From positions 32,001 to 96,000 of the IMG/VR virus record IMGVR_UViG_3300037485_001872: a stretch of 64,000 bases of DNA; one strand, 5' to 3'. The stretch comes from a virus. This document shows, piece after piece, positions 36,317 to 64,000 of the stretch. The translations under genes were made by a program, and so were the position numbers. Positions within the stretch are counted from its first letter, which is position 1. Each line of letters opens with the position of its first letter. The notes under the pieces were generated by a model, which worked only from the letters and a program-made list of their open reading frames with translations, searched no databases and was not told where the DNA came from.

Positions 36317-36659
36317 AAGACTAACATATTTTCACATGGATGGTAGGAATGTAATATGTTTTCCGTATCTTTGCACCATGTTATTTATTCAAGTAATGTA
36401 TTTCCATATAAACTTCTGTCAAGTACCGTATAAATTTTATACAAGAAATGGTCTTTTCGAAAATTATGATATAATAAATTAATATGACAATAATTGATAT
36501 TTTAAAAGTGGAAACAGAAATGAAACGTTTCCAAGAAAGAATGGAGGCCGCTAAAACTAGAATCGCAGCAGATTCATGGGCAGTCCAAGGTTGTAAAGAA
36601 ACTGGAGCCCTAAAAAGGGCAGCTATGGATTTAAAGAATTGTTTAACAACACTTACAAA

Positions 36660-43306: not shown

Positions 43307-43336
43307 AAAAAAGCCCCTATTTGGGGCTTTTTCTTT
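43307..43336. terminator. Bidirectional terminator at convergence of the two gene blocks
   Basis: AAAAAAGCCCC-TATTT-GGGGCTTTTT. Confidence 0.9.
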
Positions 43337-43986
43337 TACATGCTCTCTGGAAAATAATATCGTAAATTACTAGTATTTGGTATTTGTTCCTTTAACATCT
43401 GTGTCACATAAAATCTACTACGGCCATAGTCTTTTGCAGCTAAATTTATAGAAGAGTAAATTTCGTTAGTCTCTATATTAATTACAGGTGTACCTTTTGT
43501 TTTAGATATTTTATCTCTACATTCTTTTGACTTAGGTATTCCTAATAGACTTTTCAACAATCCTCTTCTTGTTCCTTCTGCCATTTGTTTCCCTCTATTA
43601 GATGCTGCTCCTTTTGCTCTTGCTTCTGGAGTCCTTACTTTTCCAATTTGCCATTCTGACATTTTTCTTCTAGTTTCCTCTGAATATACTGGAGGTAATA
43701 AATCTGTGGCAGGTAGTATACAATTTAATCCTACTTCTGGGTCTAATACATTATAATACTCTCCCCAATATCTTTCCTTAATAAATCTATTATCAAAATT
43801 ACATTCTTCAATTATAGTGAAGATGTGGTTTTCCCATCCGTATTTTTGAATTGACCTGTATATGATGGTTTGTCCTACAACCTCACTTCTTTTATAGTTA
43901 CTTTTTCTCTTTGTTATATTTAAAGTAGAACCAACATAAATCCTTCCAGAAGGACTTGTAATCATATAAATCCATGCTTTTCTCAT
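43336..43986 (-). CDS. Free-standing GIY-YIG homing endonuclease with NUMOD3/NUMOD1 repeats
   Basis: WIYMITSPSGRIYVGS, SIQKYGWENH.F, KERYW, GLN, SEETRRKMS, YSSI..AAK. Confidence 0.85.
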   Translation of the reverse strand: MRKAWIYMITSPSGRIYVGSTLNITKRKSNYKRSEVVGQTIIYRSIQKYGWENHIFTIIEECNFDNRFIKERYWGEYYNVLDPEVGLNCILPATDLLPPVYSEETRRKMSEWQIGKVRTPEARAKGAASNRGKQMAEGTRRGLLKSLLGIPKSKECRDKISKTKGTPVINIETNEIYSSINLAAKDYGRSRFYVTQMLKEQIPNTSNLRYYFPESM

Positions 43987-52900: not shown

Positions 52901-55900
52901 CTCCTCTTGGAAAATTCTCTATTTCCTGAATAGCATGACTTACTTCATGTATAAGAGTTAAAGCATAATATTTACTCCCATTAAGGTCGCCAGACTCGAT
53001 ATTGTTGATGATATTTCGAACCTCTCCTCCGTTGTTCCCAACTCCTGATTCTCCAATATTTTGCTCTCGGCTACTAATACGAATAAGTCCATTAGAGTAA
53101 GACCCGTTAGCTGTGTCAGCTTCTGATTTTTTGTAGAAATGTACATTTATATTTTTTAATTGTGGATATAATGTGAATAAACTAGTGTTTTCTAATACTT
53201 GGTCTAGGGTGTATTCTTTCCCTGGAGATGTATCTAGTCCTTTTTTAATATTAAACTCTTGTAATAGTTCATTAGAGAAATATTTCCATTGGCCTTCCTC
53301 TTTAAACCATCCTGTTTTATTTTCTATCTGTTGTGGGGAAGCTCCTTGAATTTCTAACTCCTTTGCCTGATTAAATAAAGAATTTAGCACGTTTAGGTTT
53401 TTTGCTCCTTGCTCTCCTACTATTTGAAAAAGAGGAATATTGTGTTTACCTCCTAATACCTCTAATAGAATAAGTTGTTGTTCTCTCACAACATCCTCTG
53501 TTTTACTAAGTAATCTGTTTCTTCTAGCTTCGGGTGTAAAAATATTTCTATAAGTTACGTTACGAGCCTCTACTTCTCCTGCTAATTTTTGATATAAATT
53601 ATATGGGGAAAACTCTGAAATTCTATCTCTAATAGGATTTAAATATTCATCTAAAGCATAAAGAACATCCATATAATCCTCTCTAGCTGCAATTTCCATC
53701 TTAATACGTAGTCTTTCAGGAAGATTATCCCACTCTTCTTCTATTTGTTTTGCTAACTCTTCGGATATTACTAAATCCTCTTTAATTAAAAAATCAGCCT
53801 TAAAGATTTTGTTTAGTTTTTTTTCTGTAATATCATCTAATAGTTCCACTATATAAGACATTTCCCTTAATACGTTCTCCTGTACTCTTAGATTTTCAAT
53901 CTCATTTAGTTGTTCCTTGGTAAATATTTTATTTAAATTTTCTAATACTATTTCTGTGTTTCCACCTTTTGCAAAAAATTCTATAAATTGAATAGCATGT
54001 TGAAGCTCATGTATTAAATCTCCAAATATGAGTCTTTCTTCTTTAACATTTATTTCAATTGAGTTTGTTTCGGGGATATACCATGAATTATTTCTTACAC
54101 GTGGGTCTATAGATATGGTGACTTTCATATCTTTTAGTTGTGGGTATGCTTTAAATAGTTCTGAATTGTTTAACACTTGACTAAGTGTATACTCTCCATT
54201 AGTGCTTATTTTTAGGGTTCCATCTGCAATTTCATACTTCCACTTTCCTTCTACCCCCTTTTCCCAACCTGTAGCTAAAAGGATTTCTTTAGGTGTCTTA
54301 CCTAATTCTTCTAATTTTTGTGCCACACTTAGATTCTCTAACACGGCTGTAGCATTTTCTAGTCCTTTAGCCCCCTTTTCTCCTATAATTTGAAAAAGAG
54401 GAATACCTTGCTTTACCTCATTTTGTAGTTCTGGGGTGATGTCTATTTTATAAATAGATGGACTAATTGAATTTAATTCTTCCACTATCTTAGTAGCTTC
54501 ATCTTTAGTATATTCTATGTCTTTTCCATTTTTATTATTCCATTCCCTAGCAATACCATTCCATATAGAAAAATTACCATTTGGTTTTTCCTCTATATAT
54601 GATGCTGCAAGTAGTGCATTATCGTCTTCAAACTTAGTAGTGGTTGGGGTTTGTTTAAAAACACTCTTAGCGACCTCCCCAACAGTGCCTAATGTTCCTT
54701 TAACAGGATTTCCGTAAAAGGCATTCATCCCTTCTCTACGTGGCATAGAAACACCTGATTCCTCAGTTTGCATTCTATTCCATAACCTGTCAATTAATTT
54801 TTGTTTTTGTGCCTCGTTACGTTCTCTACTTAACACTTTATCAACAACTGCTGCAAGTTGTTCTTTAGTTTTAACTACAACATTATTAGCAGAAAGCATT
54901 AAATTATCAACATCTGTATTTTCAAATGCTGTTCCTCCCACTTGTTCTTTGATATTAATACTCCACCCCTCTAAAGGAGTGTATTTTGGTTTATCATTTA
55001 TTGATGAATACTGGGCTCTCTCTTCAGGAGTTAATTTATCCTCCCATCCATTTCCATATTTGTTATAAAGGTCATTAACTAAAGTTTGTCTTTCTTCATT
55101 CCTTTCTTTGTTTCTTTCTGTAGCTTTTTGCCATTGGATTTTTTCACTTCCCCAACGTTCAAATTGTTGTTCACCATTTGTCCAAGAAATACTATCAACA
55201 CCTTGTTTTACGGCTTCCTTTAAAGCAACTTTAAAGGCAAGTTTCACCCATTGTGGGGTACTTGTTATGAAAGGAGCTGTTGGTATTTTTGATTTAATGT
55301 TAAAATTATTATCAAATAAAGCATTGTAATCCTCCTTATTTTGATTAAAATTTAATATGGCTTCGCTATTAACATTTAATTGTCTTTCATATGCAATTAT
55401 TTCTGCCTTTATGAGTGTATCAGCAAATGCTTGTCTAGATGTATGATTAAAAAAGTGTGCATCATCTTTTCTATTATTAAAATCCAACATTTTTTCGTCA
55501 TGTCTTTGTTGAATCATCTCTAATCTAGTAGCAAGTGAGGTTTCAGAAAGTACTTTTATTCTATCTTCTGTTGCACTACTATTTAAATATTCAGATAGGT
55601 TTATTAATTTTGCATATTCCTTTTGACTATCTTCCCATCTAGTACGAATTTCTGATAGTTGTTCGGGGGATAATGCTGCTTTATCTGCTGTTATATTTTG
55701 AGCATTATATTTCTGACCCCAATCGCTCTGAAGCTCTTCGAGAAATAACGTAGATGCACCATTTATATCTGTACGGGTATCCATACGTAAATGTACTAAT
55801 ACGTTGGGTTCATCCCAATGTGCTGAAGAGAAGTTTTTTGATTTTGAAATATCTGTTCCTATGTCCTCTAAATATTTATTATACTCTTCTTCAACTCTCT

Positions 55901-58900
55901 CTGGACTCCCAAATAATATACCATTATTATTAGAGGCTACCATAAATTCATTTCGAGTCATTGGGGCTTGTTTTGGAAGCACCACTAATATTTCCCTATA
56001 ATTCTGTCTGGCTCCTTTTTCAGTATGTGCTCCCCACTTTACTTCTTTTTGTTCCTTAAAATACTCTGTAATTTGGTCTTTTGCTTCTGTGAGTGTTTCT
56101 GGATACAATCGCATATCCAATTTCATTCCCCCTGGTTTATAAACATGGAAATCCTTATCCCCTCTTTTTTCAATTCTCCACCCTGCATTTTTAAATTCAA
56201 CAATATTTCCTATAGGAGATGTTCGTTCACTTCTTACCCAAGCTTCAGTGTCTAATTCATTACCTGATATTTTAGCATCAAGTTCTTCCAGTTTTTTATA
56301 AATATCACCAAATTCTTGTTGGTATGTAGCCTCCATTTCTTCTCCTGCCTCTCTTAGGTCTTCTCCTAATTGTGCATATCCACTTTGAGAATAACTTCCA
56401 GTCCACTCATCCATTTCCCTTCGTATTCTTGTAACTTTTTCTTGTATTGCCTCTGCCGCTGGAGATACTCTATCCCTTATTTGTTGTTGCAGAGCTGCTT
56501 TTTGCTTATTGAATTCTTCTGCTTCTTTTAGTGTTAAACTACCCTTCACAACCTCAACCACCTGTACACGATTGTCCTTTAAGAATTGTTGTATTTCGGC
56601 TTTTGTAACACTTCTATTTTGTTCTTTCAACCAGGCGTTTAACCCAACCCATTCTGCTTCTGACCCTTTTCCAAATTTATCCAACCATTGTTTTGCTGGA
56701 ATTTTTTCCACCTTACTTTCAGAAATTAGTTTTTCTAATGGTGAATAAAAACCATTAACTACTTCTGCCGCAATTGGGCGTACTTCTGTCGGTACTCCTC
56801 CAATATTCATGGTGATAGTACTACCTACAGCTTCTGCATATTTTTCATCTAAAGCATTTTGCCATTGTTGGGCTATTGGTGTTAATAATTCATTCCCTCT
56901 TTCTAAAATAGCTTGTGCTTGTTTATTTCCATCTTTTGCTGCTTCTTTTAATAGGGCTTGGTGAAGATGCGCCACCTCATGAAGCGTAGTTTCATTAGAT
57001 AGTTTTTCAGGATTTAAATAAATCTTTCCGTCAAAATACATTCCATAAACAACCCCTACTGGAGTTTTTAATTCATATGTATCAAACTTTCTATCAAAGT
57101 TTAACTTAGTTACTACAGGAATACCCATAGCTTCTGCTTGTGCTTTTAGCTTATTAAAAACAGACGGCTCCATCTTAGTAGCATCTAGTTGTATACTTTT
57201 AATATACACCAAAGTATTCTCAATTCCTGCGTCTCCTCCTATTTTAAGTTCCTGTTCTCCTATAAAGGTTCCTATTTCTTCACTACCTTTTTCAATTTTA
57301 GTATTTTCTTTTAACTTTTGTAAGTCTAAATCAATTCTAACTCCTCCATCTGCAAATGTTACAGGAGACCCATCAGGTAGATACCAACGAGTAGTGGTAA
57401 GTTCTGGATGGTCAAATTGGTCAGAGGTAGTTGTAGATACTCCTGGATACTCTCCTTCATCTCCTACGATGATATTACTGTCAAGTATTGAAGCTAAATT
57501 CTTAGTTGTAGTGTAATGGTAAGTAGTGGGTGCATTAATATCTCCCTCAAGACCATATGGATTATCTTGAACATTTAATAGCTTATGAAAAGCCATTTGC
57601 TCTGTTCTAAGTGGTTTTGCAAACTCTCCTTTTCCAGGTTCCACTTGGTCATATGTAAGTTCTTTATTTTGCCATCTATCATAAAGCTTATTTTGTTCCC
57701 TTGTAAAATTCTCATCTACAACATTTCTTAAATCAATTAAATCTGATGGTGATAATTTTACTCCTTGTTTTAAAGCATCAATGTATTGTCTAAAATTTTC
57801 TAAAGTGATGCGTTCTCCTCCAAAAGTTGAGGGGGCATTAAATTTTAGTTGCTCTTTAATAGTGATGGCTTTATCATCAAATACAACGTAATTGCGTTCT
57901 TTAGAAATATTATCTGTAACTCCTGTTCCTAAACTATCAGGTGGGTATTGTATTCCATCAATTCCAGCTCTTAATAAAAATTCTGAGGCAGCTTTTGCTG
58001 AACCATCAAGACCTCTAAATTGTTTTTGTAGTTCTGAATATATTTCTGCGGCTGTATATTGAGGAGAAGCTAAACCTGATGTATTAATTCCTTCTTTTTT
58101 CCCTTGTTTTGCTATCTTTGCAGCTTGTGTTGGGGTTAGTTTTTGATACCAATCTAAGAAGTCATATTGGTCTGGTGTTTTTCCTTCATGTAACGCCACT
58201 TTATAAACCACCCCAGAATTTGTTAATTTTGTCTTTATAGTTTCATTTAACAATGTTTGGGCTTCATCAATGGCTTTCTGTTGATACTCAACATCATTTC
58301 CATATTCTAATTCCTTTTGAGAGTCCTTAATAAAATCACGGATGATATTTTTTATTTCTTCTTTAACAGATGCATTTTTATTAAATTCATTTTTTAAATC
58401 TATTTCTGCTATTGTAAGCTCATCTACAAGTCTTCTTTGAGTTTCATTTTTGGCATTTTTATATCCAACTACAACACCTTTTTCATAGATTTTCCACTTT
58501 CCAATAGAAATATCCTGAATCTCAGTGTCGGCCATTTCCTTTGCATAATTGTCTGCAATATTTTTAAGAGAAGTGAAATAAATTCCATGCCCAAATACGC
58601 TTCCACCTTGACCTTCTCCAACTTTTGACATATCAAAATTATCGAAAGTACGACCAGTACCATGAAATGCTTCCACCTGTGCTAGATAAGCTGAATGTTC
58701 CGCAATAATACGGTTCATCTCATTCACATCTGTAGAAATGACTTCATTCGGGGTGAACTTTTTGAAAAGGTCTTTGAAGTAGTTTATAAGTACCTCTGGA
58801 GAAGTTGATTCCGCTGTTGGTGTAGCTTGAAAACTAGGAATTTGTGCACTTAAATAGTTGTACACTTTACTAATAACACCTTTCTTGTCTCTTTTTATTA

Positions 58901-58910
58901 TGCAAGTCAT
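43986..58910 (-). CDS. Giant polyvalent protein (ADP-ribosyltransferase, zincin, LPD23-like and B12-radical SAM domains); probably virion-packaged
   Basis: 4974 aa; FHGT..F..F..GQG..FGHGIYFT; HEVAH, HELQH, HEVSH; TGW....G.WKY twice; CLFNCAFC. Confidence 0.8.
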   Translation of the reverse strand: MTCIIKRDKKGVISKVYNYLSAQIPSFQATPTAESTSPEVLINYFKDLFKKFTPNEVISTDVNEMNRIIAEHSAYLAQVEAFHGTGRTFDNFDMSKVGEGQGGSVFGHGIYFTSLKNIADNYAKEMADTEIQDISIGKWKIYEKGVVVGYKNAKNETQRRLVDELTIAEIDLKNEFNKNASVKEEIKNIIRDFIKDSQKELEYGNDVEYQQKAIDEAQTLLNETIKTKLTNSGVVYKVALHEGKTPDQYDFLDWYQKLTPTQAAKIAKQGKKEGINTSGLASPQYTAAEIYSELQKQFRGLDGSAKAASEFLLRAGIDGIQYPPDSLGTGVTDNISKERNYVVFDDKAITIKEQLKFNAPSTFGGERITLENFRQYIDALKQGVKLSPSDLIDLRNVVDENFTREQNKLYDRWQNKELTYDQVEPGKGEFAKPLRTEQMAFHKLLNVQDNPYGLEGDINAPTTYHYTTTKNLASILDSNIIVGDEGEYPGVSTTTSDQFDHPELTTTRWYLPDGSPVTFADGGVRIDLDLQKLKENTKIEKGSEEIGTFIGEQELKIGGDAGIENTLVYIKSIQLDATKMEPSVFNKLKAQAEAMGIPVVTKLNFDRKFDTYELKTPVGVVYGMYFDGKIYLNPEKLSNETTLHEVAHLHQALLKEAAKDGNKQAQAILERGNELLTPIAQQWQNALDEKYAEAVGSTITMNIGGVPTEVRPIAAEVVNGFYSPLEKLISESKVEKIPAKQWLDKFGKGSEAEWVGLNAWLKEQNRSVTKAEIQQFLKDNRVQVVEVVKGSLTLKEAEEFNKQKAALQQQIRDRVSPAAEAIQEKVTRIRREMDEWTGSYSQSGYAQLGEDLREAGEEMEATYQQEFGDIYKKLEELDAKISGNELDTEAWVRSERTSPIGNIVEFKNAGWRIEKRGDKDFHVYKPGGMKLDMRLYPETLTEAKDQITEYFKEQKEVKWGAHTEKGARQNYREILVVLPKQAPMTRNEFMVASNNNGILFGSPERVEEEYNKYLEDIGTDISKSKNFSSAHWDEPNVLVHLRMDTRTDINGASTLFLEELQSDWGQKYNAQNITADKAALSPEQLSEIRTRWEDSQKEYAKLINLSEYLNSSATEDRIKVLSETSLATRLEMIQQRHDEKMLDFNNRKDDAHFFNHTSRQAFADTLIKAEIIAYERQLNVNSEAILNFNQNKEDYNALFDNNFNIKSKIPTAPFITSTPQWVKLAFKVALKEAVKQGVDSISWTNGEQQFERWGSEKIQWQKATERNKERNEERQTLVNDLYNKYGNGWEDKLTPEERAQYSSINDKPKYTPLEGWSINIKEQVGGTAFENTDVDNLMLSANNVVVKTKEQLAAVVDKVLSRERNEAQKQKLIDRLWNRMQTEESGVSMPRREGMNAFYGNPVKGTLGTVGEVAKSVFKQTPTTTKFEDDNALLAASYIEEKPNGNFSIWNGIAREWNNKNGKDIEYTKDEATKIVEELNSISPSIYKIDITPELQNEVKQGIPLFQIIGEKGAKGLENATAVLENLSVAQKLEELGKTPKEILLATGWEKGVEGKWKYEIADGTLKISTNGEYTLSQVLNNSELFKAYPQLKDMKVTISIDPRVRNNSWYIPETNSIEINVKEERLIFGDLIHELQHAIQFIEFFAKGGNTEIVLENLNKIFTKEQLNEIENLRVQENVLREMSYIVELLDDITEKKLNKIFKADFLIKEDLVISEELAKQIEEEWDNLPERLRIKMEIAAREDYMDVLYALDEYLNPIRDRISEFSPYNLYQKLAGEVEARNVTYRNIFTPEARRNRLLSKTEDVVREQQLILLEVLGGKHNIPLFQIVGEQGAKNLNVLNSLFNQAKELEIQGASPQQIENKTGWFKEEGQWKYFSNELLQEFNIKKGLDTSPGKEYTLDQVLENTSLFTLYPQLKNINVHFYKKSEADTANGSYSNGLIRISSREQNIGESGVGNNGGEVRNIINNIESGDLNGSKYYALTLIHEVSHAIQEIENFPRGGNSDTIFNEAKKIIGNSSNKLGEVRDAIAIYLKNNSPSVNESNILSAAQYELDYFFNTNKTDAKYLNYSLLFGEVEARLVADILNHKFAGVDLSNISYTELKKEYTDVHNIMTQFVVRNSQTQLSDLATATGMDLNNPVYARAAEESPEQHLERLVDEVRANLIGKYGAKELDNLSNDKGFLQQLKDWLSTIYEWVAKQFGLKDASSEELANMPLGEFISRSTGAILKGEYFQYLAPQEVDVYDHQDANAERLLEVSFKGEGGNVWKYKIENAGDVLRELAKYKNTFLDPSYIFEKINKIEDFLGKITSDRLSPIDSYAQVSSMNQDRLDLFRAAYEAQPVMSIAQEHARQLALAVVNGDVKAMQQEIAYFNTFRGDNVREKLQEANTYFSKETTRPNFKIEGLSSFEKNTSLTPSSTFKDTKGFPTYTEALAAHDGLNQKNIYVNQNPSKDNADKVLTIQVSSQYILDRQREGNVTEQGQIFDDYFDKVYSKVEGYDRSVDFMEVPFWIAAVNNSVGKDMDMYVMRDPEETLNFIQQAGYKKVMLSVLDANLSTAQTLVKDNPSINFMLGGYIPNLSSKFNTTNASTFDTMEDGVLEAGYDFKDGYKYDVFKGMEIIPRLKMSEGCLFNCAFCTVVKKIEKITKENIDEQVENISKLNAKYIYLDDKTFGQADNYTYLEDVYQRVKEQQPGFKGFIIQTTSATVKKIDSNPGFWQKAGIALVEIGVESNNDSVMRGMSKPNSERLNAEAVQIIRKNGMKFIPNLIIGFEKETAATYENTIKFLKDNADVISHANIYNLAVYEGTALDDMMNVTVEADRNENMLEKSFHSNPQLHAEYFKKMYKTVEDMIDANKIAPTPQVASELFSEIAANPHIQSNEDANGIFQNVFSEKFKKFFGDWTTPSTNEDIEKQLENVPVEKLHPTAKALILSTAAKMKSPSLYFKGIDGKTGVNAHPDVEGIFAATTYEMAKEYDRGSGVDFYLVDSPKVETVRVETNVPFSVARQNETTEINAAKADVVFLSTFDAAGKRETQVVIKNPKVKISGKANPLVNKGGEPKLFYRTPEGKVFTNFADALNNTNIGSIEMGFISTDDIMITTNPDVFDIATADLVVMNNQYKLENPDSFLKVAAIDSNSNPKSISGFINKYLRQGLIAPNKKQMPNGEFKLAGKGELAINSIVSAAILSDEALADLGREGMTLSNDGTFTLNQKDESVIEIPTKDGGVKQVSISDLEKGKIDADLDGVHDVLFNLSYQKSTPFKGVPISKQEQDLLKSKLLGLLNKMGISVVSITEYTAKYKVRTGTDLSVNALVDLANGVVALSDNATLQDLTEEVAHIIIEAHPNQQEIRDLLKEIENTPEWETFSGEYYQKYSELYEGEELEEAVRREILGKILLNNILEGFANTAGNPSLFQKLIAIINSFINRIQAHLNVGHRTALQEYMDMATRIALNEDSEFLDRNVLKQSSLVLYSVNNTVVNTLDVTRRRLLGELEVAKQHIQSNQRILQKLKDSGAQTLKSDIRRLNAAIAKIGTNTATLNKAFADDTLTEEVKLEALNNSLNEVDEFHAVQVIASMNEAQITNLSNKLRIYKKTPGAAFNFGDQSQYRYLTTVALPQLDRLIALFKTFPNQPNVNKDKLVAQLEQQTIEIHRIQGEAYLQENKDVEQIVDRTLMGLNLPDSSTESGVVTKENIKASFDAVQRDVNVLQKVFGQLEHAPNIFLNLLGKIVANNNMLANLATLKIINPLIAYAEKNNWNITRFKSLRESSVSNYLISVIRSQDFDNAEKKMIEDAYEANLTDEKKEEIAKAKRYPVETDLTDEGLDKFLKAKNDWYEENLERPMVAKYYQDKENLYTEAGVGNELRVFLANLASRKAEILEKYRVSGSVDYSKIEEEDQYNLSRIVSDRKARKSFFNAETGEEKTGVDLEIANQLRKLDEIVQTKMNNKVAQSLFSKNFSELRPSEVVKVQEAKKKTIKNEFFSAVRDIESTDGSQAAFKFLMANGGLNFSDAYWNAITANTTKMVDRVDAIRLNDSRITPEHSRTMKASMDELEELLNSKKEILRQFTSANSPAEIEYDLMGELTKKNIIEKEDRIQELFLDVNTILSKYEEKIEDPFSYSENTTNEAYTKALADSGKPESEFLLLHMTEENKSRVRRFTSALKNVQRGGENLKAYEDYFDRKYGVNSSDDVRSLLTNRGMEELVADYSRERVTSYFKRFAPMGYDALLINLKDGTYSTTKLLDDLEAAKATAYAPTNILHNLAISTRFEWVEEGEDLRNPDYKTDSEFGFKQPKISKWRNDEYFRRFNPDANGQATTNLEEFTMLQKLKAVTKDAHIKYEEEGRNINKIPQVRRGKYERIQNASWDAIKNSVKDVIYNREDEKDYGEQVEGQDTDIRIIPKYYLRDLDDMEDVSNDFIYSYAVLQNAANTFEQRINSIADVSVIQNKLLNSKFDKGKAPASTNVAEAYREAMDAYFYGRRLSAKSSITLQNGKEVDVSRMAVHFNNLIKKAALGFSPTIAITSALVSNIQLAIYNRVGLYINTNSSRWAGGELSKLLPEYTTEIGKVNKQNKLYKLGETFGVHEIATKTKSAGYNRILRSLNDSPYAFMEMAATPHANIVMLSVLDDFRLVGDKFLTYEEFKLRADNANIDSKALLFKWNTLRKDSLYNLLENREGIMQLSEATENAIGKEYADALLSRVQSKIISTNNTIDSKTSADDKSAASRHFMMQFFTNFKDWFTLGVQKRFKRKHLNLRQGIEEEGHYITFKHFISDLTSLAYKDGLTKAISSIKSNYRSLSKTEQANLKLIALDVAAFTILTMLGMLVMAAADDDKNKHNWAIQYLSFIYFRTTSEVGSSQAPTGFLNVIDIIKSPIMAGNTMSQLFTVKDWTSDPVTSGTWEGYPKVARLLLRNTYYKHYMDLRNADAVREKTSFYRMLNSEVLISVQKPSKLEKEKLKKEALDNNINTIDKTGGI

Positions 58911-58917
58911 ATATTTT

Positions 58918-59244
58918 TTAACATGTTGAACATTCTTCCTGAGTGAAGCCTGTAATTACCACTGTATTTCCCTTAATTAGGGCATTTAAATCTAAATCAA
59001 TAATATTGTGTCCATCAAGACGTTTAACTTCAAACACCTTACTACGGCCTGAATGACCCATCCATTTAGCTATATAATATTGTTCTGCGGATTTTTTTAG
59101 GATGATGAAAACATCCCCCACTCCCCAAAACTCATTAATTTCAATAATTGTTTTATTGTTTTTTTGAAGAGCTGAAGCAGTTATCTTCGCTCTTTTAGCT
59201 CCATTATAAGAAGGAGAACTACTATCAGGCCAAATCCAATCCAT
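58918..59244 (-). CDS. Hypothetical protein
   Basis: 108-aa ORF after minus-strand promoter. Confidence 0.65.
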   Translation of the reverse strand: MDWIWPDSSSPSYNGAKRAKITASALQKNNKTIIEINEFWGVGDVFIILKKSAEQYYIAKWMGHSGRSKVFEVKRLDGHNIIDLDLNALIKGNTVVITGFTQEECSTC

Positions 59245-59303: not shown

Positions 59304-61451
59304 TTATCCGCAGTGGTCTATTGTTTGTTCAATATTTTGACGCTCTGTTTCTGTGTAAAGTGGTGTACTTTTAAAAGAGGAAAATGCAGAGGATTTTAAT
59401 GTGGCATCTTTGGCAGAATAGTCTTCATTAACAGATACATTTTTATCAATAACGTTATATGTAGAATCATTGATACCAACTAATGGGGTGTAATGTGCTA
59501 TATTAGCTGTAGTTTCTATCTTCTCATAAACCCTACCATCAAGTCTTACAAAATCATCTTGTATATTCTCTATATTAATAATAGGGCTACCTATGGTTCC
59601 AGAAAATTTTCCTTTATATTCTCTCACTAGTTTTGGGTTATTTACATAGAATGAACGTAAAAATGGTGTTGTTGGACTCGCTGCTATTTCCTTTGGCTCA
59701 AAGATGTTTTCCAGATTTTTATTTATTATACTATAATTTTTTAAATCATTTAAATCAGAAACGGTTTTTATTTCTGCTATTGTAATGGGGTCATTATTTT
59801 TTAATACAATCTCACCATTTTCAATTTCAAATGCTTTACTTAAAATATCATTCCCCACCATTCTTTGGTAGAAGTCTGAAATAAATTCTCCTGTTAAATA
59901 TGTTACATCCCCAGTAAATTCTGAATAGTTATTAAATTCTTGCTTAACATCCACTTTATTTTGGGTGCTACTAAGTGGGTGGCCAAATAAAAGTTTATAT
60001 ATCACCATCTCAGGGGTGATGTTATTTAAAGAGGCTTTTTCATTTAAATACCTCTTAACATCTTCTCCTGCATTTTTTGCCTTATTTGGTCTAAATGTAT
60101 TTGTACCGTCATAAGCTGTTGGGTAGTATGCTACATCTGGTAGGATTGATGGGTCTTCTTCCACCATCACCATTAATTCATTAAATAACTCTTCTTGAGG
60201 TATTCTATCAATGAGTTGATACACATCATCTTTCACCTGTAGAAGGGAAGATATTTCAAATGTTTCTATGGCCGACTCTGTAGTTTTATTTACCACTAAA
60301 GATAGGTCTGATGTTTCTATCACCTTTGTCTTTTCTACAGGAGAAATAGAGAAGTACTCGTCATATATTTGACTAAAATTGTCAACATCTTCACTTGTAG
60401 GGGCTACACTTAAATTGGTTGTAAATTCAACTAGGGCATTTAAAAACTCTAAGGTTTGTGGTTGTGTTTTAGACTCCTGTACTTCTACTAAGTCAGAAAG
60501 GTTTATTCCCATTAGAAGAGACTCTTTGGAAATGTCTTCTAATATGGTGGCCACTTCCTTTGGATATGCATCCCACACTTCTGGTGATATTCTTAATAAG
60601 GTGTTAAAGTGTTTAATAATCATAGCATTACTCATGCCTGTCTTTAAAACACTCTCCAATAGATTACGGGTACTATCCACCACTTGTTTTTCATTTATTA
60701 AATAAGGAACCTTTTGTAGCTTTGAGTATTTCTCATATAATGATTTTGCATATGTAGCATCGGAATTATACTTATCTATTATAGATTGAAATGGGAGTGT
60801 TTGCACTACATCGCTGAATTGTTCTTCAGTTACACCTATTAAATAATTTTCTAGTTCCTTTTCTACTAAATAAGGATTTAAATGAGTTGTCTTACCAATG
60901 GGTGAAACTGAGTCTGTAGTGCTTAATACTTCTAATGAAGGTGAAAATTGGATATTAGGTGTCCTATCTAATTTTTTAATGACATTATAAATCTGTTCCC
61001 GTAAAGTTGGTGTAGTGATAATAACATCAATTTCACTATTGGTGTAAAGTTTAGATGCTATTAAGCTTTGTTTAGTGGGTTTAAAAACACCATTTGAAAT
61101 AAAAGCTGTTTTAAGTAGTGTGGAAAGCTGTGATAGGGATGTGATGGGAAGTCCTAAAACACTATTCTGTACCTCCACTATTTCTTTACTAGAAAGTCCT
61201 TGTTTTGCTGAGGAATTTTGTACATAATCTAACACTGTTTGGGCGTAATATTCCCCATTAGCATCTTTTTGTACATTATTATGAATAGTGGTAAATTCTG
61301 GGGTGTAGGAAATAGCAAAGTATTCGAGTGCTTTTTCTTCCTCACCCAATATGCTGAGTAAGTTTTTATATAATAAGGAATCTTCTCCATTTGGGGCATC
61401 TACGGATGTTATTTTTCCATCCACTCGCATTATCTGACAACTTATTGACAT
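59304..61451 (-). CDS. Large putative virion/cargo protein
   Basis: 715 aa; N-terminal C.I.R..G.I..V.APNG..S.LY..YTPEF..D.NGE motif shared in part with the 4974-aa protein. Confidence 0.7.
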   Translation of the reverse strand: MSISCQIMRVDGKITSVDAPNGEDSLLYKNLLSILGEEEKALEYFAISYTPEFTTIHNNVQKDANGEYYAQTVLDYVQNSSAKQGLSSKEIVEVQNSVLGLPITSLSQLSTLLKTAFISNGVFKPTKQSLIASKLYTNSEIDVIITTPTLREQIYNVIKKLDRTPNIQFSPSLEVLSTTDSVSPIGKTTHLNPYLVEKELENYLIGVTEEQFSDVVQTLPFQSIIDKYNSDATYAKSLYEKYSKLQKVPYLINEKQVVDSTRNLLESVLKTGMSNAMIIKHFNTLLRISPEVWDAYPKEVATILEDISKESLLMGINLSDLVEVQESKTQPQTLEFLNALVEFTTNLSVAPTSEDVDNFSQIYDEYFSISPVEKTKVIETSDLSLVVNKTTESAIETFEISSLLQVKDDVYQLIDRIPQEELFNELMVMVEEDPSILPDVAYYPTAYDGTNTFRPNKAKNAGEDVKRYLNEKASLNNITPEMVIYKLLFGHPLSSTQNKVDVKQEFNNYSEFTGDVTYLTGEFISDFYQRMVGNDILSKAFEIENGEIVLKNNDPITIAEIKTVSDLNDLKNYSIINKNLENIFEPKEIAASPTTPFLRSFYVNNPKLVREYKGKFSGTIGSPIINIENIQDDFVRLDGRVYEKIETTANIAHYTPLVGINDSTYNVIDKNVSVNEDYSAKDATLKSSAFSSFKSTPLYTETERQNIEQTIDHCG

Positions 61452-61455
61452 ATTG

Positions 61456-64000
61456 TTATTTCTTTTTACGTGTTTTACATTTTTTACTCAACTCTTCATT
61501 TGCGGCCTTAGTATTCTCTTGTGTTGGAGTTGACACTACATCGGGAGCTACATCTACAATTGATGGTTTCATTTTTCCAATGTAGTCCATTGAAAGTCCT
61601 CCAAAAATAGGAATTGTTTTGTCTATGTTCATGAATTTATCTAGAACGTCTTTAGAGTTCACAAATCCTCCTATGGTGTTTTCTCCTTCTGAGCTTCTAA
61701 TTATTATAGTGGCATTTAGTTTTGCTGTTTTCTTGATTTGCTCGAAAATAGCTTCTTTTTGTTCCACTGTAACTCCCGCTTCTAAACTAACTATTATAGT
61801 GTCGTGAGATGAATAATCATAATCTTCCCCTCTGGCTGTCACTAAATTAACTTTAGAACCCACTGCATCTAGAACTTTTTGTCCTAAAGCATTAGCTTCC
61901 TGTGAAATATCTACACCAGTTACTTTATGTTGTTTTTTCTCAATTAGTATTGGAGAAAGTGGAATGGCTCCTGAACCTATAAATACAACATTACCTTTCA
62001 TAAAACGGGTTTCTTTTTGTAAAGTTTCTACATAGTCAGCATAATATTCAAAATCTTCTAGTGTTTTAGTTCCCGCAATTATTTCATTTGCAAAAGCTAC
62101 TTCTCTATCATAGTCTTCTTGGTTTAGGTTTTGTAATAATTGGGGTGTTTCTTTGAGGGATTGTTCTACTGCCTTAACTTTCTTAAAAGCCAATATCTTT
62201 TTGCGACCTAATTCAACGTGTGATGCCATTCTATGTTGTCCATCATGGAAAAATCCGCTATAAATTACAGGTGGCAATTCTTCCCCTCTTTTTAATAGTT
62301 TCACCATATCATTGACTCTATCCATGTGTTCTAAATCACCATCGTAATCATCAACTAATTTATCTTTGTCGATTTTAGTATTGACAGAAACATAAGTTAA
62401 TTCATATTGACCACTAAATTTATTAGAGCTGTTATCAGCATAAGCCCCCATTCTGTCGTATATTTTAGTCAAATCTTCCGCAGAAACAACTTCACCTAAT
62501 TTAATGCCACCCCATTCGCTTCTAATATCTTCCTTCACATCTCCTACACCAACACCAACACTACCTGCTTGGGGTGTTTCTTTGAGGGATTGTTCTAAAA
62601 TTACATCAACTTGTTCACCTCCGACTACAAGTGTAGCTACTTTTTTACCATAAAAAGGAGATGACTTATCTGTTCCTTCACGAATTTCAGTAACTCTTAC
62701 TGGAATATTTTCCTTTCCTTGTGATTCTTTTATTGCTTGTATTAACTCTAATGCACTTTCATTTTCTTCGGATTTTAAATCTATGCCTAAATTTTCTACT
62801 GCTTCTTCAAACGTGTTAAAACCCTTATCATTTTGTTCTCTACTCTCTCCTTGTTTATTTGTAGTTTGTGTTTTAAATTTAGTTGTTTTTACACCATTTT
62901 TTTCTGTTGTAGTTACAACCACCTTAACCATTTTACCCGAGCCATCATTTACAGTTTTATATGGTTTTTCCAATTTACTTCCCACATCTCCCCCTACACC
63001 AACACTACCTACTTCTTCTTCGGTTTTACCTTGTTCTTTGGGTAACAGTAAATCTTCTACAGTTTTTACTAATTCAGGATTAGTGTCGTCTAATTTTGCT
63101 TTGTGGTATGCTTCCGAAACATCTCTTGCAGATTTATATTCATCTCCAAATTTATCTTGAAAATCATCAAACCAAGCAATATCTAAATTACCTAATGCAG
63201 TCCCTGTACTTTCAATATCTTTTAATGTATTATTAGATACCTCATTTGTAGTAGCATCTTCTCCCCCTACACCTACACTCCCTGCTTTTGGTAAAGCTGT
63301 TGCTTGACTTTTTGGGGCTTCAAGTAAAGGTGTAGCTTGACTTTTTAGTTGAGAAAGTATAGATAATTCGTTGCTGTACTTAGTAATTTCATCAAATGCT
63401 CTTTTGGGTTGTTCAAGTAATAATGTAAGTGTATCTCCTAAGTTATTTGTACCTCTTAACCAACCTATATAAGTACCTTTATCTAAATTTTCAGTAAATT
63501 TGGGAATACCTACCACCTCTGCAAAATAATCTAATATAATTTGAGTTGCTGTAGTTCTTGTATTAACTTGGGAATCAGGTAGTGAATTTCTTCTTATATC
63601 TACATCGGATACTTTTACTTCTTGGGTAGGGACTACTGGTTGAGCTTCTTCATCCACTCCTTCAAATAGTTCCACCTCCTCATTCGGCTCCCCAAAATCT
63701 AGTACAACCTTTGGTGAATGAAAAACATCCCCACGTAAATCTAAATGTATACTTGCATTTTCAATTAAAGTTTGTTCCATATCTGTTTCTGGTAAAAGCC
63801 AGTCCGACAAAGATACGAATTTATTTACATTAGACAATAAAGATTTTATTTTATCAATCTTTGCTTTATTAAGGTTTCCTGAAGTGATTTGTAGGGGCTG
63901 AACATCAATACCATTTCTCATTAATAAGAGATTTAGATTAGATGCTTTTTCAGCCTCTTCCACTTGTGTATTCATAATAGCATCCACTTCTCCTGAAACA
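61456..64000 (-). CDS. C-terminal part of a large modular protein with ParB/Srx-like and nicotianamine-synthase-like domains
   Basis: Frame open to window edge; LPPVI..DGQHR; FEYYADY..FIGSGAIPLS..VD..K.AIF..IIIRSSEG. Confidence 0.75.
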   Translation of the reverse strand, partial: VSGEVDAIMNTQVEEAEKASNLNLLLMRNGIDVQPLQITSGNLNKAKIDKIKSLLSNVNKFVSLSDWLLPETDMEQTLIENASIHLDLRGDVFHSPKVVLDFGEPNEEVELFEGVDEEAQPVVPTQEVKVSDVDIRRNSLPDSQVNTRTTATQIILDYFAEVVGIPKFTENLDKGTYIGWLRGTNNLGDTLTLLLEQPKRAFDEITKYSNELSILSQLKSQATPLLEAPKSQATALPKAGSVGVGGEDATTNEVSNNTLKDIESTGTALGNLDIAWFDDFQDKFGDEYKSARDVSEAYHKAKLDDTNPELVKTVEDLLLPKEQGKTEEEVGSVGVGGDVGSKLEKPYKTVNDGSGKMVKVVVTTTEKNGVKTTKFKTQTTNKQGESREQNDKGFNTFEEAVENLGIDLKSEENESALELIQAIKESQGKENIPVRVTEIREGTDKSSPFYGKKVATLVVGGEQVDVILEQSLKETPQAGSVGVGVGDVKEDIRSEWGGIKLGEVVSAEDLTKIYDRMGAYADNSSNKFSGQYELTYVSVNTKIDKDKLVDDYDGDLEHMDRVNDMVKLLKRGEELPPVIYSGFFHDGQHRMASHVELGRKKILAFKKVKAVEQSLKETPQLLQNLNQEDYDREVAFANEIIAGTKTLEDFEYYADYVETLQKETRFMKGNVVFIGSGAIPLSPILIEKKQHKVTGVDISQEANALGQKVLDAVGSKVNLVTARGEDYDYSSHDTIIVSLEAGVTVEQKEAIFEQIKKTAKLNATIIIRSSEGENTIGGFVNSKDVLDKFMNIDKTIPIFGGLSMDYIGKMKPSIVDVAPDVVSTPTQENTKAANEELSKKCKTRKKK
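62140..62597. repeat. 29-bp perfect direct repeat pair
   Basis: TTGGGGTGTTTCTTTGAGGGATTGTTCTA at 62140-62168 and 62569-62597; offset 429 bp = 143 codons. Confidence 0.9.

What the first reader, a model, noticed from the sequence alone, without database searches (positions are those of the whole stretch)
62140..63290. In-frame domain cassettes delimited by repeated linker DNA inside one ORF
Seen: a perfect 29-bp direct repeat (EQSLKETPQ) at 62140 and 62569, 429 bp (143 codons) apart, exactly brackets the ParB-like domain, so recombination between the copies would excise or insert it in frame. A second linker GSVGVG(G/V) occurs three times with conserved DNA (~62538-62569, ~62984-63012, ~63259-63286), each opening a different 90-140-aa module. 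The pattern is [GSVGVGG]-domain-[EQSLKETPQ]. Inference: a recombination-based plug-in system that shuffles effector domains within a virion protein, like a cassette array at sub-gene scale.
Basis: partly seen in the sequence, partly recalled or inferred. Interest (0 to 1): 0.72.

Follow-up and report, generated by a model that had tools for sequence, protein, structure and literature searches.

The report
Shared junction motifs frame swappable phage effector domains
The repeated linkers are real and belong to a conserved junction found in giant virion-type proteins of many uncultured phages, where it frames enzyme domains that are exchanged, in frame, between otherwise unrelated genes.

Summary
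Observation confirmed. The 29-nt perfect repeat (62140, 62569; 429 nt = 143 codons apart) and three GSVGVG-coding copies exist. They lie in the C-terminal third of a 2354-aa minus-strand ORF that runs off the window.

The two "linkers" are the outer parts of one junction. I name its parts: C-cap (…AYHKAKxDGxNPELVKAVEQSLKETPQ), spacer (AGSVGVGG) and N-cap (DVExTAKAL…). The C-cap occurs in 52 IMG/VR contigs and 258 database proteins. These include bona fide polyvalent proteins carrying ART-PolyVal, ParB, PBECR3 or LPD domains.

In 195 sequences I found 106 cap–cargo–cap modules whose cargos fall into 64 clusters. Thirteen near-identical cargos sit in unrelated contexts. In the 12 I measured, identity breaks inside the caps. 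Module M2 of this gene is 433/436 nt identical to contigs in wastewater and freshwater runs that lack its neighbours.

Best reading: evolutionary in-frame module exchange at a conserved structural junction. It is not a programmed intragenomic cassette switch: the genome holds no spare cassettes and no deletion variants were shown. The junction appears undescribed. New variant of a known kind; interest about 0.6.

The parts
61456..64000 (-). 3' part (847 codons) of a 2354-aa ORF. The gene continues beyond the window to coordinate 68520 (G000:C1:93456-100520).
   Evidence: The N-terminal body matches phrog_32390 (E 2e-93). It is 24-29% identical to the 1957-aa 'structural protein' of Cellulophaga phage phi17:2_18.
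61456..62139 (-). Module 4: SAM-methyltransferase / nicotianamine-synthase-like domain plus a basic C-terminal tail (aa 2128-2354, with stop codon)
   Evidence: Pfam NAS PF03059, 40.7 bits (cutoff 27.1), E 2.3e-10; Methyltransf_25 E 1.4e-5
62140..62168 (-). 29-nt repeat, copy 2, encoding (V)EQSLKETPQ (aa 2119-2127). It closes the ParB-like module.
62167..62541 (-). Module 3: ParB/Srx-fold cargo domain (about aa 1994-2118) with a DGQHR motif
   Evidence: AF2 pLDDT 78.7. Foldseek top rows are ParB-N/sulfiredoxin/Noc. Homologues include a solo 190-aa protein (72% id, no linkers) and a 3430-aa protein with the same two linkers.
62544..62570 (-). GSVGVGV spacer, copy 3 (aa 1986-1992)
   Evidence: (D1 reference copy). 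Disordered in the model (pLDDT <50).
62569..62597 (-). 29-nt repeat, copy 1, encoding (L)EQSLKETPQ (aa 1976-1984). It closes M2.
62596..62988 (-). Module 2 (M2): 131-aa domain of unknown function (aa 1845-1975). It circulates as a cassette.
   Evidence: 127/129 aa identical to P0003. 433/436 nt identical to contigs of runs X3 and X6. 64-73% identical copies lie in 5 other metagenome loci and in P0004-P0008. No Pfam hit.
62988..63014 (-). GSVGVGG spacer, copy 2 (aa 1838-1844)
63010..63261 (-). Module 1 (M1): minimal helical cap module (aa 1754-1837). N-cap DIESTGTAL lies at 63193-63219; C-cap AYHKAKLDDTNPELVKTVEDLL lies at 63046-63111.
   Evidence: Alignment A2 with 7 short modules from IMG/VR loci has 24 invariant columns. 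The AF2 model has four helices, residues 25-91, pLDDT 81-89.
63261..63287 (-). GSVGVGG spacer, copy 1 (aa 1747-1753)
63284..63346 (-). 33-nt tandem near-duplication (KSQAT.L..A twice) in the low-complexity stretch before spacer copy 1
   Evidence: D3, 83% identity

Best explanation
The gene encodes a large protein of the virion/ejected 'polyvalent' type from a crAss-like / Cellulophaga-phi17:2-like phage. A conserved N-terminal body of about 1540 aa is followed by a variable C-terminal string of four modules. These are a small helical cap module, an unknown domain (M2), a ParB/Srx-like domain and a SAM methyltransferase-like domain.

The modules are joined by a junction shared with hundreds of giant proteins of uncultured phages. 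Its full form has three parts. The names are mine.
- C-cap helices: …(I/V)(S/A)EAYHKAKADGSNPELVKAVE(Q/D/S)(S/L)L(KETPQ).
- A short disordered spacer: AGSVGVGG, or …NPAL(K/R).
- An N-cap helix: DVE(S/A)TAKAL….
In this gene, M2 and the ParB module keep only the outer parts: GSVGVGGDV–cargo–(KAV)EQSLKETPQ.

Shown:
- The junction is conserved as a peptide across otherwise unalignable genes.
- Known effector domains sit between an N-cap and the next C-cap.
- M2 of this gene is 99.3% identical in DNA to a copy in other metagenomes that carries exactly the two substitutions of P0003, a protein otherwise unrelated to this one.

Inferred:
- The caps and spacer insulate each cargo structurally, so that any domain can be tolerated.
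- Their conserved coding DNA (exact matches of 20 nt or more in about a fifth of pairs) gives the short homology for in-frame exchange between co-infecting phages.
- The 29-nt perfect repeat around the ParB module is the footprint of such an insertion. It could also mediate an in-frame 429-nt deletion.
For: Repeat reality and shared ancestry:
- (6e-5 for identical rare codons).

Junction breadth:
- 52 IMG/VR contigs carry the C-cap pattern, all in ORFs of 486-3876 aa.
- 258 proteins reach E<=1e-3 among 723 candidates of 183-2000 aa.

Polyvalent nature of the bearers:
- ddrB-ParB plus SNF2 helicase, ART-PolyVal, PBECR3 and LPD38.
- Precomputed ART-PolyVal, ParBc, GNAT, NUDIX and LPD1/5/23/38.

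Grammar in 195 sequences:
- 172 C-caps and 139 N-caps.
- N-cap followed by C-cap 106 times; C-cap followed by N-cap 29-30 times; C-cap followed by C-cap 3-4 times.
- Cargos are 22-287 aa (median 139.5). The 104 cargos of 25 aa or more fall into 64 clusters.
- 6 of 8 ART-PolyVal/ParB_N Pfam stretches in 8 proteins lie wholly between an N-cap and the next C-cap.

Mosaics among 27 near-identical cargo pairs:
- 7 have both flanks unrelated.
- 5 have their only testable flank unrelated.
- 1 has one flank identical and the other unrelated.
- In the 12 mosaic pairs examined, identity ends 0-18 aa before the N-cap and 4-17 aa after NPELV.

Specific cases:
- L003 and L012 share only a 212-aa block (94.8% aa; 636 bp at 94.3%), at positions 40-251 and 965-1176.
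- P0010 and L014 share 283 aa at 99.6%, running from GSVGVGG to KAVE.
- For this gene, M2 is 127/129 aa identical to P0003. The only other similarity is a 29-aa cap.
- X3 (wastewater) and X6 (freshwater) hold contigs covering 62575-63010 with 3 differences: Q1970K, I1930V and one synonymous change. The first two are P0003's two substitutions. The bins covering the ParB and methyltransferase modules and most of M1 have zero or near-zero depth in these runs.
- Summed depth on the linker bins is 40-70 times that of M2 in X6, with many different loose ends.

Same linkers around other cargos:
- P0138: AGSVGVGGDV–ParB-like–KAVEQSLKETPK.
- Also P0009, P0017, P0027, P0086 and P0124.

Structure and context:
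- The spacers are disordered and the M1 caps are helical in AF2 models.
- The gene lies in a same-strand block with virion structural, DNA-transfer and tail-spike genes.
- Its phi17:2 homologue is annotated 'structural protein'.
Against: - No recombination event was observed directly.
- The source-run unitigs for the ParB module and its flanks have equal depth (18 against 18.1 and 18), so a ParB-less variant is not abundant there. The 'joints' have sides of only 19-35 nt with unknown content between them, so they cannot be read as deletions.
- Codon identity at identical residues in the C-cap (0.555, against a codon-usage null of 0.426, sd 0.009) is no higher than in the ordinary M2 domain (0.52-0.78). 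Nothing shows selection on the DNA itself.
- Exact DNA matches between C-cap copies are short: median 14 nt, 20 nt or more in 250 of 1175 pairs, 26 nt or more in 73 of 1175.
- The near-invariance of the cap peptide implies a protein-level function that I could not identify. There is no Pfam family and no informative fold match.
- Breakpoints may cluster in linkers simply because only such junctions give working proteins.
- The DNA of P0003, P0009, P0010 and P0138 could not be fetched, so most mosaics rest on protein comparison.
- Packaging in the virion is inferred from context and homology only.
Confidence: 0.65

Rival explanations
1. The junction is conserved mainly as a proteolytic processing site. 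The giant protein would be cut at each junction, during virion maturation or after ejection, to release separate effector domains. Module exchange would be a side effect.
For: - Polyvalent proteins are proposed to be processed by zincin-like peptidase domains, and P1 DdrB/DarA are cleaved before packaging (passages of PMC5512222 read).
- The spacers are predicted disordered.
- The neighbouring 4974-aa ORF has three HExxH motifs. Two overlap weak Pfam peptidase hits: DUF6782 (E 0.002) and SprT-like (E 0.062).
Against: - This protein has no HExxH motif. Only 9 of 101 cap-bearing proteins have one, against 2 in one shuffle each.
- The conserved element is about 25-30 aa of predicted helix on each side, far longer than a typical cleavage site.
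- N-cap and C-cap come as matched pairs around a cargo (106 N-cap-to-C-cap; cross-type pairs 0 and 1). That fits a structural pair better than a site.
- No cleavage data exist.
Confidence: 0.15
2. There is a selection filter only. The caps are conserved for a protein function such as folding, solubility, packaging or ejection. Exchange happens by illegitimate recombination anywhere, and breakpoints are seen in the junction only because other junctions destroy the protein. The conserved DNA plays no part.
For: - Synonymous conservation does not exceed that of an ordinary domain.
- The median exact match is only 14 nt.
Against:
- The same cargo is found behind alternative spacers (GSVGVGG or NPALK), with the switch inside DVEATAKAL (P0027, P0042, P0086).
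- The 29-nt perfect repeat with shared rare codons flanks the ParB module exactly. Homology-guided insertion would leave this; random joining would not.
Confidence: 0.12
3. This is an active, programmed cassette system within this phage. Recombination between the repeated linkers would switch effector domains in and out at high frequency within the population, as in shufflons or silent-cassette systems.
For: - The exact 29-nt direct repeat is in frame.
- A GIY-YIG homing endonuclease ORF lies at 43336-43986 in the same gene block.
Against: - No other copy of either linker or of the cap motifs exists in the 134-kb record, which is 88% complete.
- No recombinase lies beside the gene.
- Unitig depths in the source run are equal.
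- The GSVGVG copies differ at synonymous sites (81-85% identity).
Confidence: 0.05

Closest known systems
Polyvalent proteins of phages and conjugative elements (Iyer, Burroughs, Anand, de Souza, Aravind 2017; PMC5512222, passages read)
   Same: Giant multi-domain proteins that combine unrelated enzymatic effector domains (ParB-like, methylase, ART, GNAT, PBECR, LPDs). They lie next to virion genes and are thought to enter the host with the DNA. Domain accretion and mosaicism are noted in the paper. Proteins sharing this junction carry the signature Pfam families, and so does the neighbouring 4974-aa ORF.
   Different: In its main text, the paper does not contain the words 'linker', 'spacer', 'boundar*' or 'shuffl*', and its uses of 'flank' and 'repeat' concern other things. 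A conserved cap–spacer–cap junction framing each domain is not described there. I could not see its supplementary files. This protein itself has no LPD or ART-PolyVal hit.
Conserved-motif ('His box') recombination in T-even distal tail-fibre/adhesin genes (Tétart, Desplats, Krisch 1998). The content is recalled. The title phrase was found only in reference lists (search listing).
   Same: Short conserved motifs inside an ORF flank variable segments and serve as sites of in-frame recombination that swaps functional modules between phages.
   Different: Those motifs swap host-range determinants of one fibre protein. Here the cargo is a wide set of enzymatic domains (64 clusters). The junction is a matched helix pair plus a spacer, and it is reused many times per protein.
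Pre-toxin / demarcation motifs of polymorphic toxin systems (for example VENN in CdiA, PxxxxDPxGL in Rhs). Recalled. The polymorphic-toxin cassette analogy is mentioned in PMC5512222.
   Same: A conserved peptide motif marks the border of a variable module. Its coding DNA gives the homology for replacing that module.
   Different: Those systems vary one C-terminal toxin and keep silent orphan cassettes nearby. Here modules are internal and multiple, no orphan cassettes are present, and the carriers are lytic-type phages.
Mobile regulatory cassettes (PeSLs) mediating modular shuffling in T4-type genomes (PMC2839356; search listing and abstract only)
   Same: Short conserved sequences at module borders promote the shuffling of modules between related phages.
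   Different: Those are intergenic regulatory DNA between genes. Here the borders are translated, in-frame and inside one ORF.

Membership tests
Polyvalent proteins (Iyer et al. 2017) | Two or more unrelated effector/enzymatic domains in one large polypeptide | tested here: met
   A ParB/Srx-fold module and a NAS/SAM-methyltransferase-like module lie in a 2354-aa protein.
Polyvalent proteins (Iyer et al. 2017) | Encoded by a phage or conjugative element, linked to virion or transfer genes | tested here: met
   The source is a virus record. The same-strand block holds virion structural, DNA-transfer and tail-spike PHROGs. Gene order is syntenic with Cellulophaga phage phi17:2_18 structural genes.
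Polyvalent proteins (Iyer et al. 2017) | Signature families (LPDs, ART-PolyVal, ddrB-ParB, MPTase, SNF2) | tested here: not met
   None was found in this protein at E<=0.1, and it has no HExxH motif. They are present in proteins sharing its junction and in the neighbouring ORF. I therefore file it as a polyvalent-type protein by architecture, not by signature domains.
Polyvalent proteins (Iyer et al. 2017) | Packaged and delivered into the host with the DNA | not testable with these tools
   There is only context and a homologue annotated 'structural protein'.
ParB/Srx superfamily (module 3) | ParB/Srx fold | tested here: inconclusive
   Foldseek top rows are almost all ParB-N, sulfiredoxin, Noc or SerK (prob up to 0.97), but the best E is 0.027 and TM is 0.33-0.38.
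ParB/Srx superfamily (module 3) | Conserved DGxHR-type motif | tested here: met
   The motif here is DGQHR. D108, G109, H111 and R112 are invariant in alignment A3 of 10 sequences.
ParB/Srx superfamily (module 3) | Match to Pfam ParB models or to solved ParB sequences | tested here: not met
   No Pfam family at E<=1. No ParB chain by phmmer or by profile against the PDB.
Programmed cassette / shufflon-like switching systems | Spare (silent or orphan) cassettes with the same border repeats elsewhere in the genome | tested here: not met
   Six-frame motif scans of the 134-kb record find the linkers and caps only in this ORF. The record is 88% complete.
Programmed cassette / shufflon-like switching systems | Dedicated recombinase or reverse transcriptase at the locus | tested here: inconclusive
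   The adjacent ORFs of 715 and 108 aa have no Pfam or PHROG hit. A GIY-YIG homing endonuclease lies 17 kb away. The genome was not scanned exhaustively.
Programmed cassette / shufflon-like switching systems | Coexisting rearranged variants in one population | tested here: inconclusive
   Only contigs could be laid. Unitig depths are equal (18.1, 18, 18), and the joints are ambiguous, with sides of 19-35 nt.
Motif-mediated in-frame module exchange (T-even adhesin type) | Short conserved motifs inside ORFs flanking variable segments | tested here: met
Motif-mediated in-frame module exchange (T-even adhesin type) | Mosaic relatives with breakpoints in the motifs | tested here: met
   13 of 27 near-identical cargo pairs are mosaic. 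In the 12 examined, breakpoints lie 0-18 aa before the N-cap and 4-17 aa after the C-cap. At DNA level this holds for L003/L012, L014/L031, L015/L033 and window M2 against X3/X6.
Motif-mediated in-frame module exchange (T-even adhesin type) | Recombination at the motifs shown experimentally | not testable with these tools
   It needs crosses between cultured phages. No cultured phage carries the cap (0 matches in 50,697 GenBank phage records).

The most novel reading that the evidence does not exclude
The cap–spacer–cap junction is a community-wide 'standard connector'. On this reading it is a peptide and DNA adaptor kept by selection because it makes anti-host effector domains plug-and-play. 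It would do this structurally, as a self-closing helical clasp that insulates any cargo. It would do it genetically, as a shared in-frame homology patch. Uncultured crAss-like and Flavobacteriia-type phages would then draw on a common pool of effector cassettes and re-string them on their ejected virion proteins. A second, parallel connector type (KADIERRRQEEL … INAKYDAELxALE) would serve the same role.
Probability: 0.3. Interest if true: 0.8.

Novelty: new variant of a known kind. Interest (0 to 1): 0.6.

Why it matters
Polyvalent proteins are thought to be the multi-tool with which phages and plasmids disarm host defences on entry. How they gain and reshuffle their domains has only been described as 'accretion' and 'mosaicism'.

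A conserved, recognisable junction that frames each domain gives three things.
- A simple sequence handle (the cap motifs) for delimiting and cataloguing unknown effector domains in metagenomes. Here that yields 64 cargo clusters, most without any Pfam family.
- A concrete, testable mechanism for in-frame domain exchange between phages.
- A natural design rule for stringing folded domains on one polypeptide.

It also shows that one cassette (M2) is circulating almost unchanged between unrelated genes. Its near-identical copy was confirmed in one wastewater and one freshwater run. Part of the stretch (about a sixth of the sampled words) was indexed in runs of 14 studies, most of which I did not lay.

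Tried and rejected
Searches that found nothing:
- Exact degenerate-DNA scans of IMG/VR for KETPQAGSVGVG and for EQSLKETPQ gave 0 contigs. The window's own record may be left out.
- blastn of the gene against GenBank phages gave no match.
- The search for related loci with the 847-aa C-terminus in IMG/VR confirmed no relative.
- tblastn of a cap module against 50,697 GenBank phage records gave none.

Searches that gave little:
- A word search with the 42-aa junction among proteins of 1294-4120 aa gave only 15 candidates. It did not even list P0009, so it was uninformative.
- The one metagenome scan (M2 profile A1) returned 5 loci at 64-73% identity but not P0003's contig. DNA-level comparison with P0003 was therefore possible only indirectly, through runs X3 and X6.

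- The excess over a codon-usage null is real (0.555 against 0.426).
- It is matched by an ordinary domain control (0.52-0.78), so I reject it as evidence of DNA-level selection.

Read mapping for deletion junctions:
- Only Logan contigs were available.
- The source assembly simply breaks at the repeats.
- The listed joints most likely come from other cargos framed by the same linkers in other organisms.
- Parts of the stretch without cover in X2, X3 and X6 are not evidence of absence.

Identity of the cap module:
- Pfam: 0 families for the window member and only scattered single hits among 8 members.
- Foldseek against the PDB: nothing at E<=0.001.
- VIA-align wide: best Z 5.2, generic helices.
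- ESM Atlas: best score 0.85, below the useful range.

Identity of the ParB module by sequence:
- There was no Pfam or PDB match.

Other points:
- Chance origin of the 29-nt repeat is rejected.
- The earlier-findings tool was not open.
- No complex prediction was run, because no protein–protein binding is claimed.
Full report
**1. What is in the sequence**

The finding lies on the minus strand, in an ORF that runs from 61456 off the end of the window. The window is G000:C1:32001-96000 of a 134,122-bp IMG/VR virus record estimated 88% complete. In the laid genome the ORF continues to window coordinate 68520 and encodes 2354 aa, stored as P0002.

The repeat finder confirms both repeat families.
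- A 29-nt perfect direct repeat lies at 62140-62168 and 62569-62597, 429 nt apart.
- Three 27-nt copies lie at 62544, 62988 and 63261, 85% and 81% identical to the reference copy.

The 29-mer has exactly two matches in the window even with 3 mismatches allowed. None of 100 shuffles gave two.

In protein terms, GSVGVG(G/V) sits at residues 1747, 1838 and 1986, and EQSLKETPQ at 1976 and 2119. Neither peptide occurs anywhere else in the six frames of the record.

Both EQSLKETPQ copies use the same three codons that are rare in this gene: TCC (9%), CTC (4%) and CCC (15%). The chance of identical codons given the peptide is 6e-5. The two copies therefore share recent DNA ancestry.

**2. The four modules**

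- M1 (aa 1754-1837) is a small helical unit.
- M2 (aa 1845-1975) has no Pfam family.
- Module 3 (about aa 1994-2118) carries DGQHR.
  - It gave no Pfam or PDB sequence match.
  - An AF2 model built on 10 homologues has pLDDT 78.7 and pTM 0.72, with both linkers disordered.
  - Its Foldseek list is headed by ParB-N, sulfiredoxin and Noc, but weakly (best E 0.027, prob 0.96-0.97).
  - I accept 'ParB/Srx-like' at fold and motif level.
- Module 4 (aa 2128-2354) matches Nicotianamine synthase / SAM methyltransferase above Pfam's cutoff (40.7 bits against 27.1).

**3. Context**

The plus-strand half of the window holds replication genes: DNA polymerase, primase, exonuclease, helicase, RNR and GroEL.

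The gene of interest lies in a long minus-strand block.
- Upstream are virion structural proteins, a 'DNA transfer protein' and tail-spike-like proteins.
- Downstream are ORFs of 715 and 108 aa without hits.
- Next is a 4974-aa ORF with LPD23 (twice), radical SAM, ART-PolyVal and weak metallopeptidase hits. Its C-terminal 1800 aa match a 'virion structural protein' PHROG.
- Last is a GIY-YIG homing endonuclease.

The N-terminal body of P0002 matches phrog_32390 (E 2e-93). It is 24-29% identical (aa 52-847 and 1080-1539) to the 1957-aa 'structural protein' Phi17218_039 of Cellulophaga phage phi17:2_18, which has the same gene order. crAss-like phages also match. Similarity stops at about residue 1540.

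The protein is thus a conserved body with a variable C-terminal extension.

**4. The linkers are parts of a widespread junction**

A search with the C-terminal 655 aa found large proteins sharing only M2 (P0003-P0008). It also found two proteins (P0009, P0010) that carry the same linkers around other sequences. P0009 has several copies of KAVEQSLKETPQAGSVGVGGDVE. These proteins also showed that EQSLKETPQ is the tail of a longer motif, …AYHKAKxDGxNPELVKAVEQSLKETPQ.

The evidence for breadth is as follows.
- A degenerate DNA pattern for AYHKAKxDxxNPELV found 52 IMG/VR contigs. Every hit lies in an ORF of 486-3876 aa, and many of these ORFs are cut by contig ends.
- A second motif, (A)L(K/R)DVESTAKAL, lies 34-295 aa upstream in 29 modules of 28 loci.
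- M1 of the window aligns with seven short modules, with 24 invariant columns.
- Its AF2 model is four helices (residues 25-91, pLDDT 81-89) with disordered flanks.
- A word-index search with one short module found 258 proteins (E<=1e-3, of 723 candidates, lengths 183-2000 only).

The bearers are polyvalent proteins in the sense of Iyer et al. 2017.
- ddrB-ParB with an SNF2 helicase (L003).
- ART-PolyVal (L012).
- ddrB-ParB (L036).
- PBECR3 (L020).
- LPD38 (L008).
- Precomputed ART-PolyVal, ParBc, GNAT, NUDIX and LPD1/5/23/38 in the 258-protein set.

The cap motif is in no Pfam family. It appears in no paper of the searched library: 0 papers for eight motif strings. The 2017 paper does not use 'linker', 'spacer', 'boundar*' or 'shuffl*' in its main text. 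Its supplements were not visible to me.

No cultured phage in 50,697 GenBank records has the cap. Among 185,579 species genomes only 8 contigs have it, all from MAGs. Four of the 8 are labelled Flavobacteriales, Sediminibacterium or Bacteroidetes.

**5. Grammar and cargo**

I worked with all 195 sequences in hand: 143 database proteins and 52 ORFs, with some duplicates between the two sets. The motif regular expressions are my own.

- There are 172 C-caps and 139 N-caps.
- An N-cap is followed by a C-cap 106 times, and a C-cap by an N-cap 29-30 times (median gap 24 aa). A C-cap is followed by another C-cap 3-4 times.
- Cargos are 22-287 aa long (median 139.5).
- The 104 cargos of 25 aa or more form 64 clusters, the largest with 8 members.
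- In eight multi-module proteins, 6 of 8 ART-PolyVal/ParB_N Pfam stretches lie wholly between an N-cap and the next C-cap. One ends just before a C-cap, and one lies outside any cap pair.
- A second cap pair, KADIERRRQEEL … (I)NAKYDAELxALE, frames 9 further modules. Cross-type pairs are nearly absent (0 and 1). This second pair frames M2 in P0004-P0008.
- GSVGVGG is followed by the N-cap in about half of its 20 occurrences and by other cargo in the rest.
- EQSLKET follows a full C-cap in about half of its 23 occurrences and a bare cargo end in the rest.

The window's M2 and ParB modules are of the bare kind. The same bare frame surrounds a 40%-identical ParB-like domain in the 3430-aa P0138. 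By contrast, the closest relative of the window's ParB module (P0131, 72% identical, 190 aa) is a solo protein without linkers.

**6. Evidence for exchange**

Of 27 cargo pairs with at least 90% identity:
- 10 are the same gene seen twice.
- 1 has related flanks (72-75%).
- 3 are ambiguous, because only neighbouring caps match.
- 7 have both flanks unrelated.
- 5 have their only testable flank unrelated.
- 1 has one flank identical and the other unrelated.

I examined 12 of the 13 mosaic pairs and left out P0043/P0066 as redundant with P0025/P0066. In these 12, identity ends 0-18 aa before the N-cap and 4-17 aa after NPELV.

One cargo (P0027, P0042, P0086) is found behind either GSVGVGG or NPALK, and before either EQSLKETT or EDALTPQ. 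The switch points therefore lie inside the caps.

At DNA level:
- L003 and L012 share only 636 bp (94.3%).
- L014 and L031 share only 504 bp (95.8%).
- L015 and L033 share 533 bp (94.9%) at this module.
- Many other locus pairs share only a 67-121-bp island of 86-95% identity on the C-cap.

For the window itself:
- M2 is 127/129 aa identical to P0003. That protein otherwise shares only a 29-aa cap with P0002.
- Part of the 1.9-kb stretch (16-25% of the sampled words) is indexed in runs of 14 studies.
- I laid four of those runs. A wastewater run (X3) and a freshwater run (X6) each hold a contig covering 62575-63010 with three differences.
- Those differences are Q1970K, I1930V and one synonymous change. 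The first two are exactly P0003's two substitutions.
- The bins covering the ParB and methyltransferase modules and most of M1 have zero or near-zero depth in those runs.
- The linker bins collect 40-70 times the summed depth of M2, with many different continuations.

**7. What was not shown**

- The source run's contigs simply break at the repeats. The unitigs are 62143-62597 and 62568-63023, with equal depths of 18 against 18.1 and 16.2 for the flanks.
- The listed joints have short sides (19-35 nt) and unknown content between them. They are not proof of deletion variants.
- Synonymous conservation in the C-cap (0.555 against a null of 0.426) is within the range of the ordinary M2 domain (0.52-0.78).
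- Exact matches between cap copies are short. The median is 14 nt; 21% of pairs reach 20 nt and 6% reach 26 nt.
- The caps and linkers occur nowhere else in this genome.
- The protein lacks a peptidase motif, whereas its giant neighbour has three HExxH.
- The fold of the cap unit matched nothing informative.

**8. Verdict**

There is a conserved, apparently undescribed junction grammar in polyvalent virion-type proteins of uncultured crAss-like / Flavobacteriia-type phages. The units framed by this junction move between genes.

The mechanism I favour (confidence about 0.65) is homology-assisted, in-frame exchange at a junction conserved for a protein-level role, probably as a structural insulator. 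The 29-nt repeat would be the footprint of the ParB module's insertion.

A role as processing sites (0.15) and a pure selection filter (0.12) remain open. The first of these is not exclusive of my reading. A programmed within-genome cassette switch is unlikely (0.05).

Noticed in passing
window 43986-58910 (-): A 4974-aa ORF, a polyvalent protein in its own right. It has LPD23 twice, a radical SAM domain (aa 2626-2787), ART-PolyVal (aa 82-135) and three HExxH motifs (aa 644, 1634, 1988; two overlap weak peptidase hits). Its C-terminal 1800 aa match a 'virion structural protein' PHROG. A radical SAM domain inside a virion-type giant protein is unusual. The ORF uses none of the cap motifs.
   Followed up: partly
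C-termini of P0009, P0014, P0015, P0020, P0024, P0039, P0064, P0139 and others; window 61459-61530 (-): Many cap-bearing proteins end in a conserved tail (…QLEEKGLIxKKGxCP or similar) with a Cys within the last few residues. The window protein ends …ELSKKCKTRKKK. This may be a shared C-terminal signal.
   Followed up: no
P0004-P0008, P0026, P0032, P0056, P0068, P0069, P0138: A second matched pair of border motifs, KADIERRRQEEL at the start and (I)NAKYDAELxALE at the end, frames other modules of 82-136 aa (9 found). It hardly ever pairs with the first type.
   Followed up: partly
window 43336-43986 (-); G000:C1:119924-120862 (-): A GIY-YIG homing endonuclease ORF abuts the end of the 4974-aa gene. 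An HNH endonuclease ORF sits inside the structural gene block.
   Followed up: no
window 36639-38276 (+), 29390-31606 (+): The phage encodes a GroEL-like chaperonin (phrog_5725, E 1e-114) and a ribonucleotide reductase.
   Followed up: no
window 63284-63346 (-): A 33-nt tandem near-duplication (83% identity) encodes KSQAT.L..A twice, just before the first GSVGVGG.
   Followed up: no
window 59304-61451 (-) and 58918-59244 (-): ORFs of 715 and 108 aa lie between the two giant genes and have no Pfam or PHROG match. Cellulophaga phage phi17:2_18 has genes of 517 and 119 aa at the same positions.
   Followed up: partly
L015 versus L033: Two related genes (67% identical over about 1880 aa) share a 94.9%-identical cap module. 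L033 has about 280 extra residues between that module and the shared body, so it is an insertion variant at a junction.
   Followed up: partly
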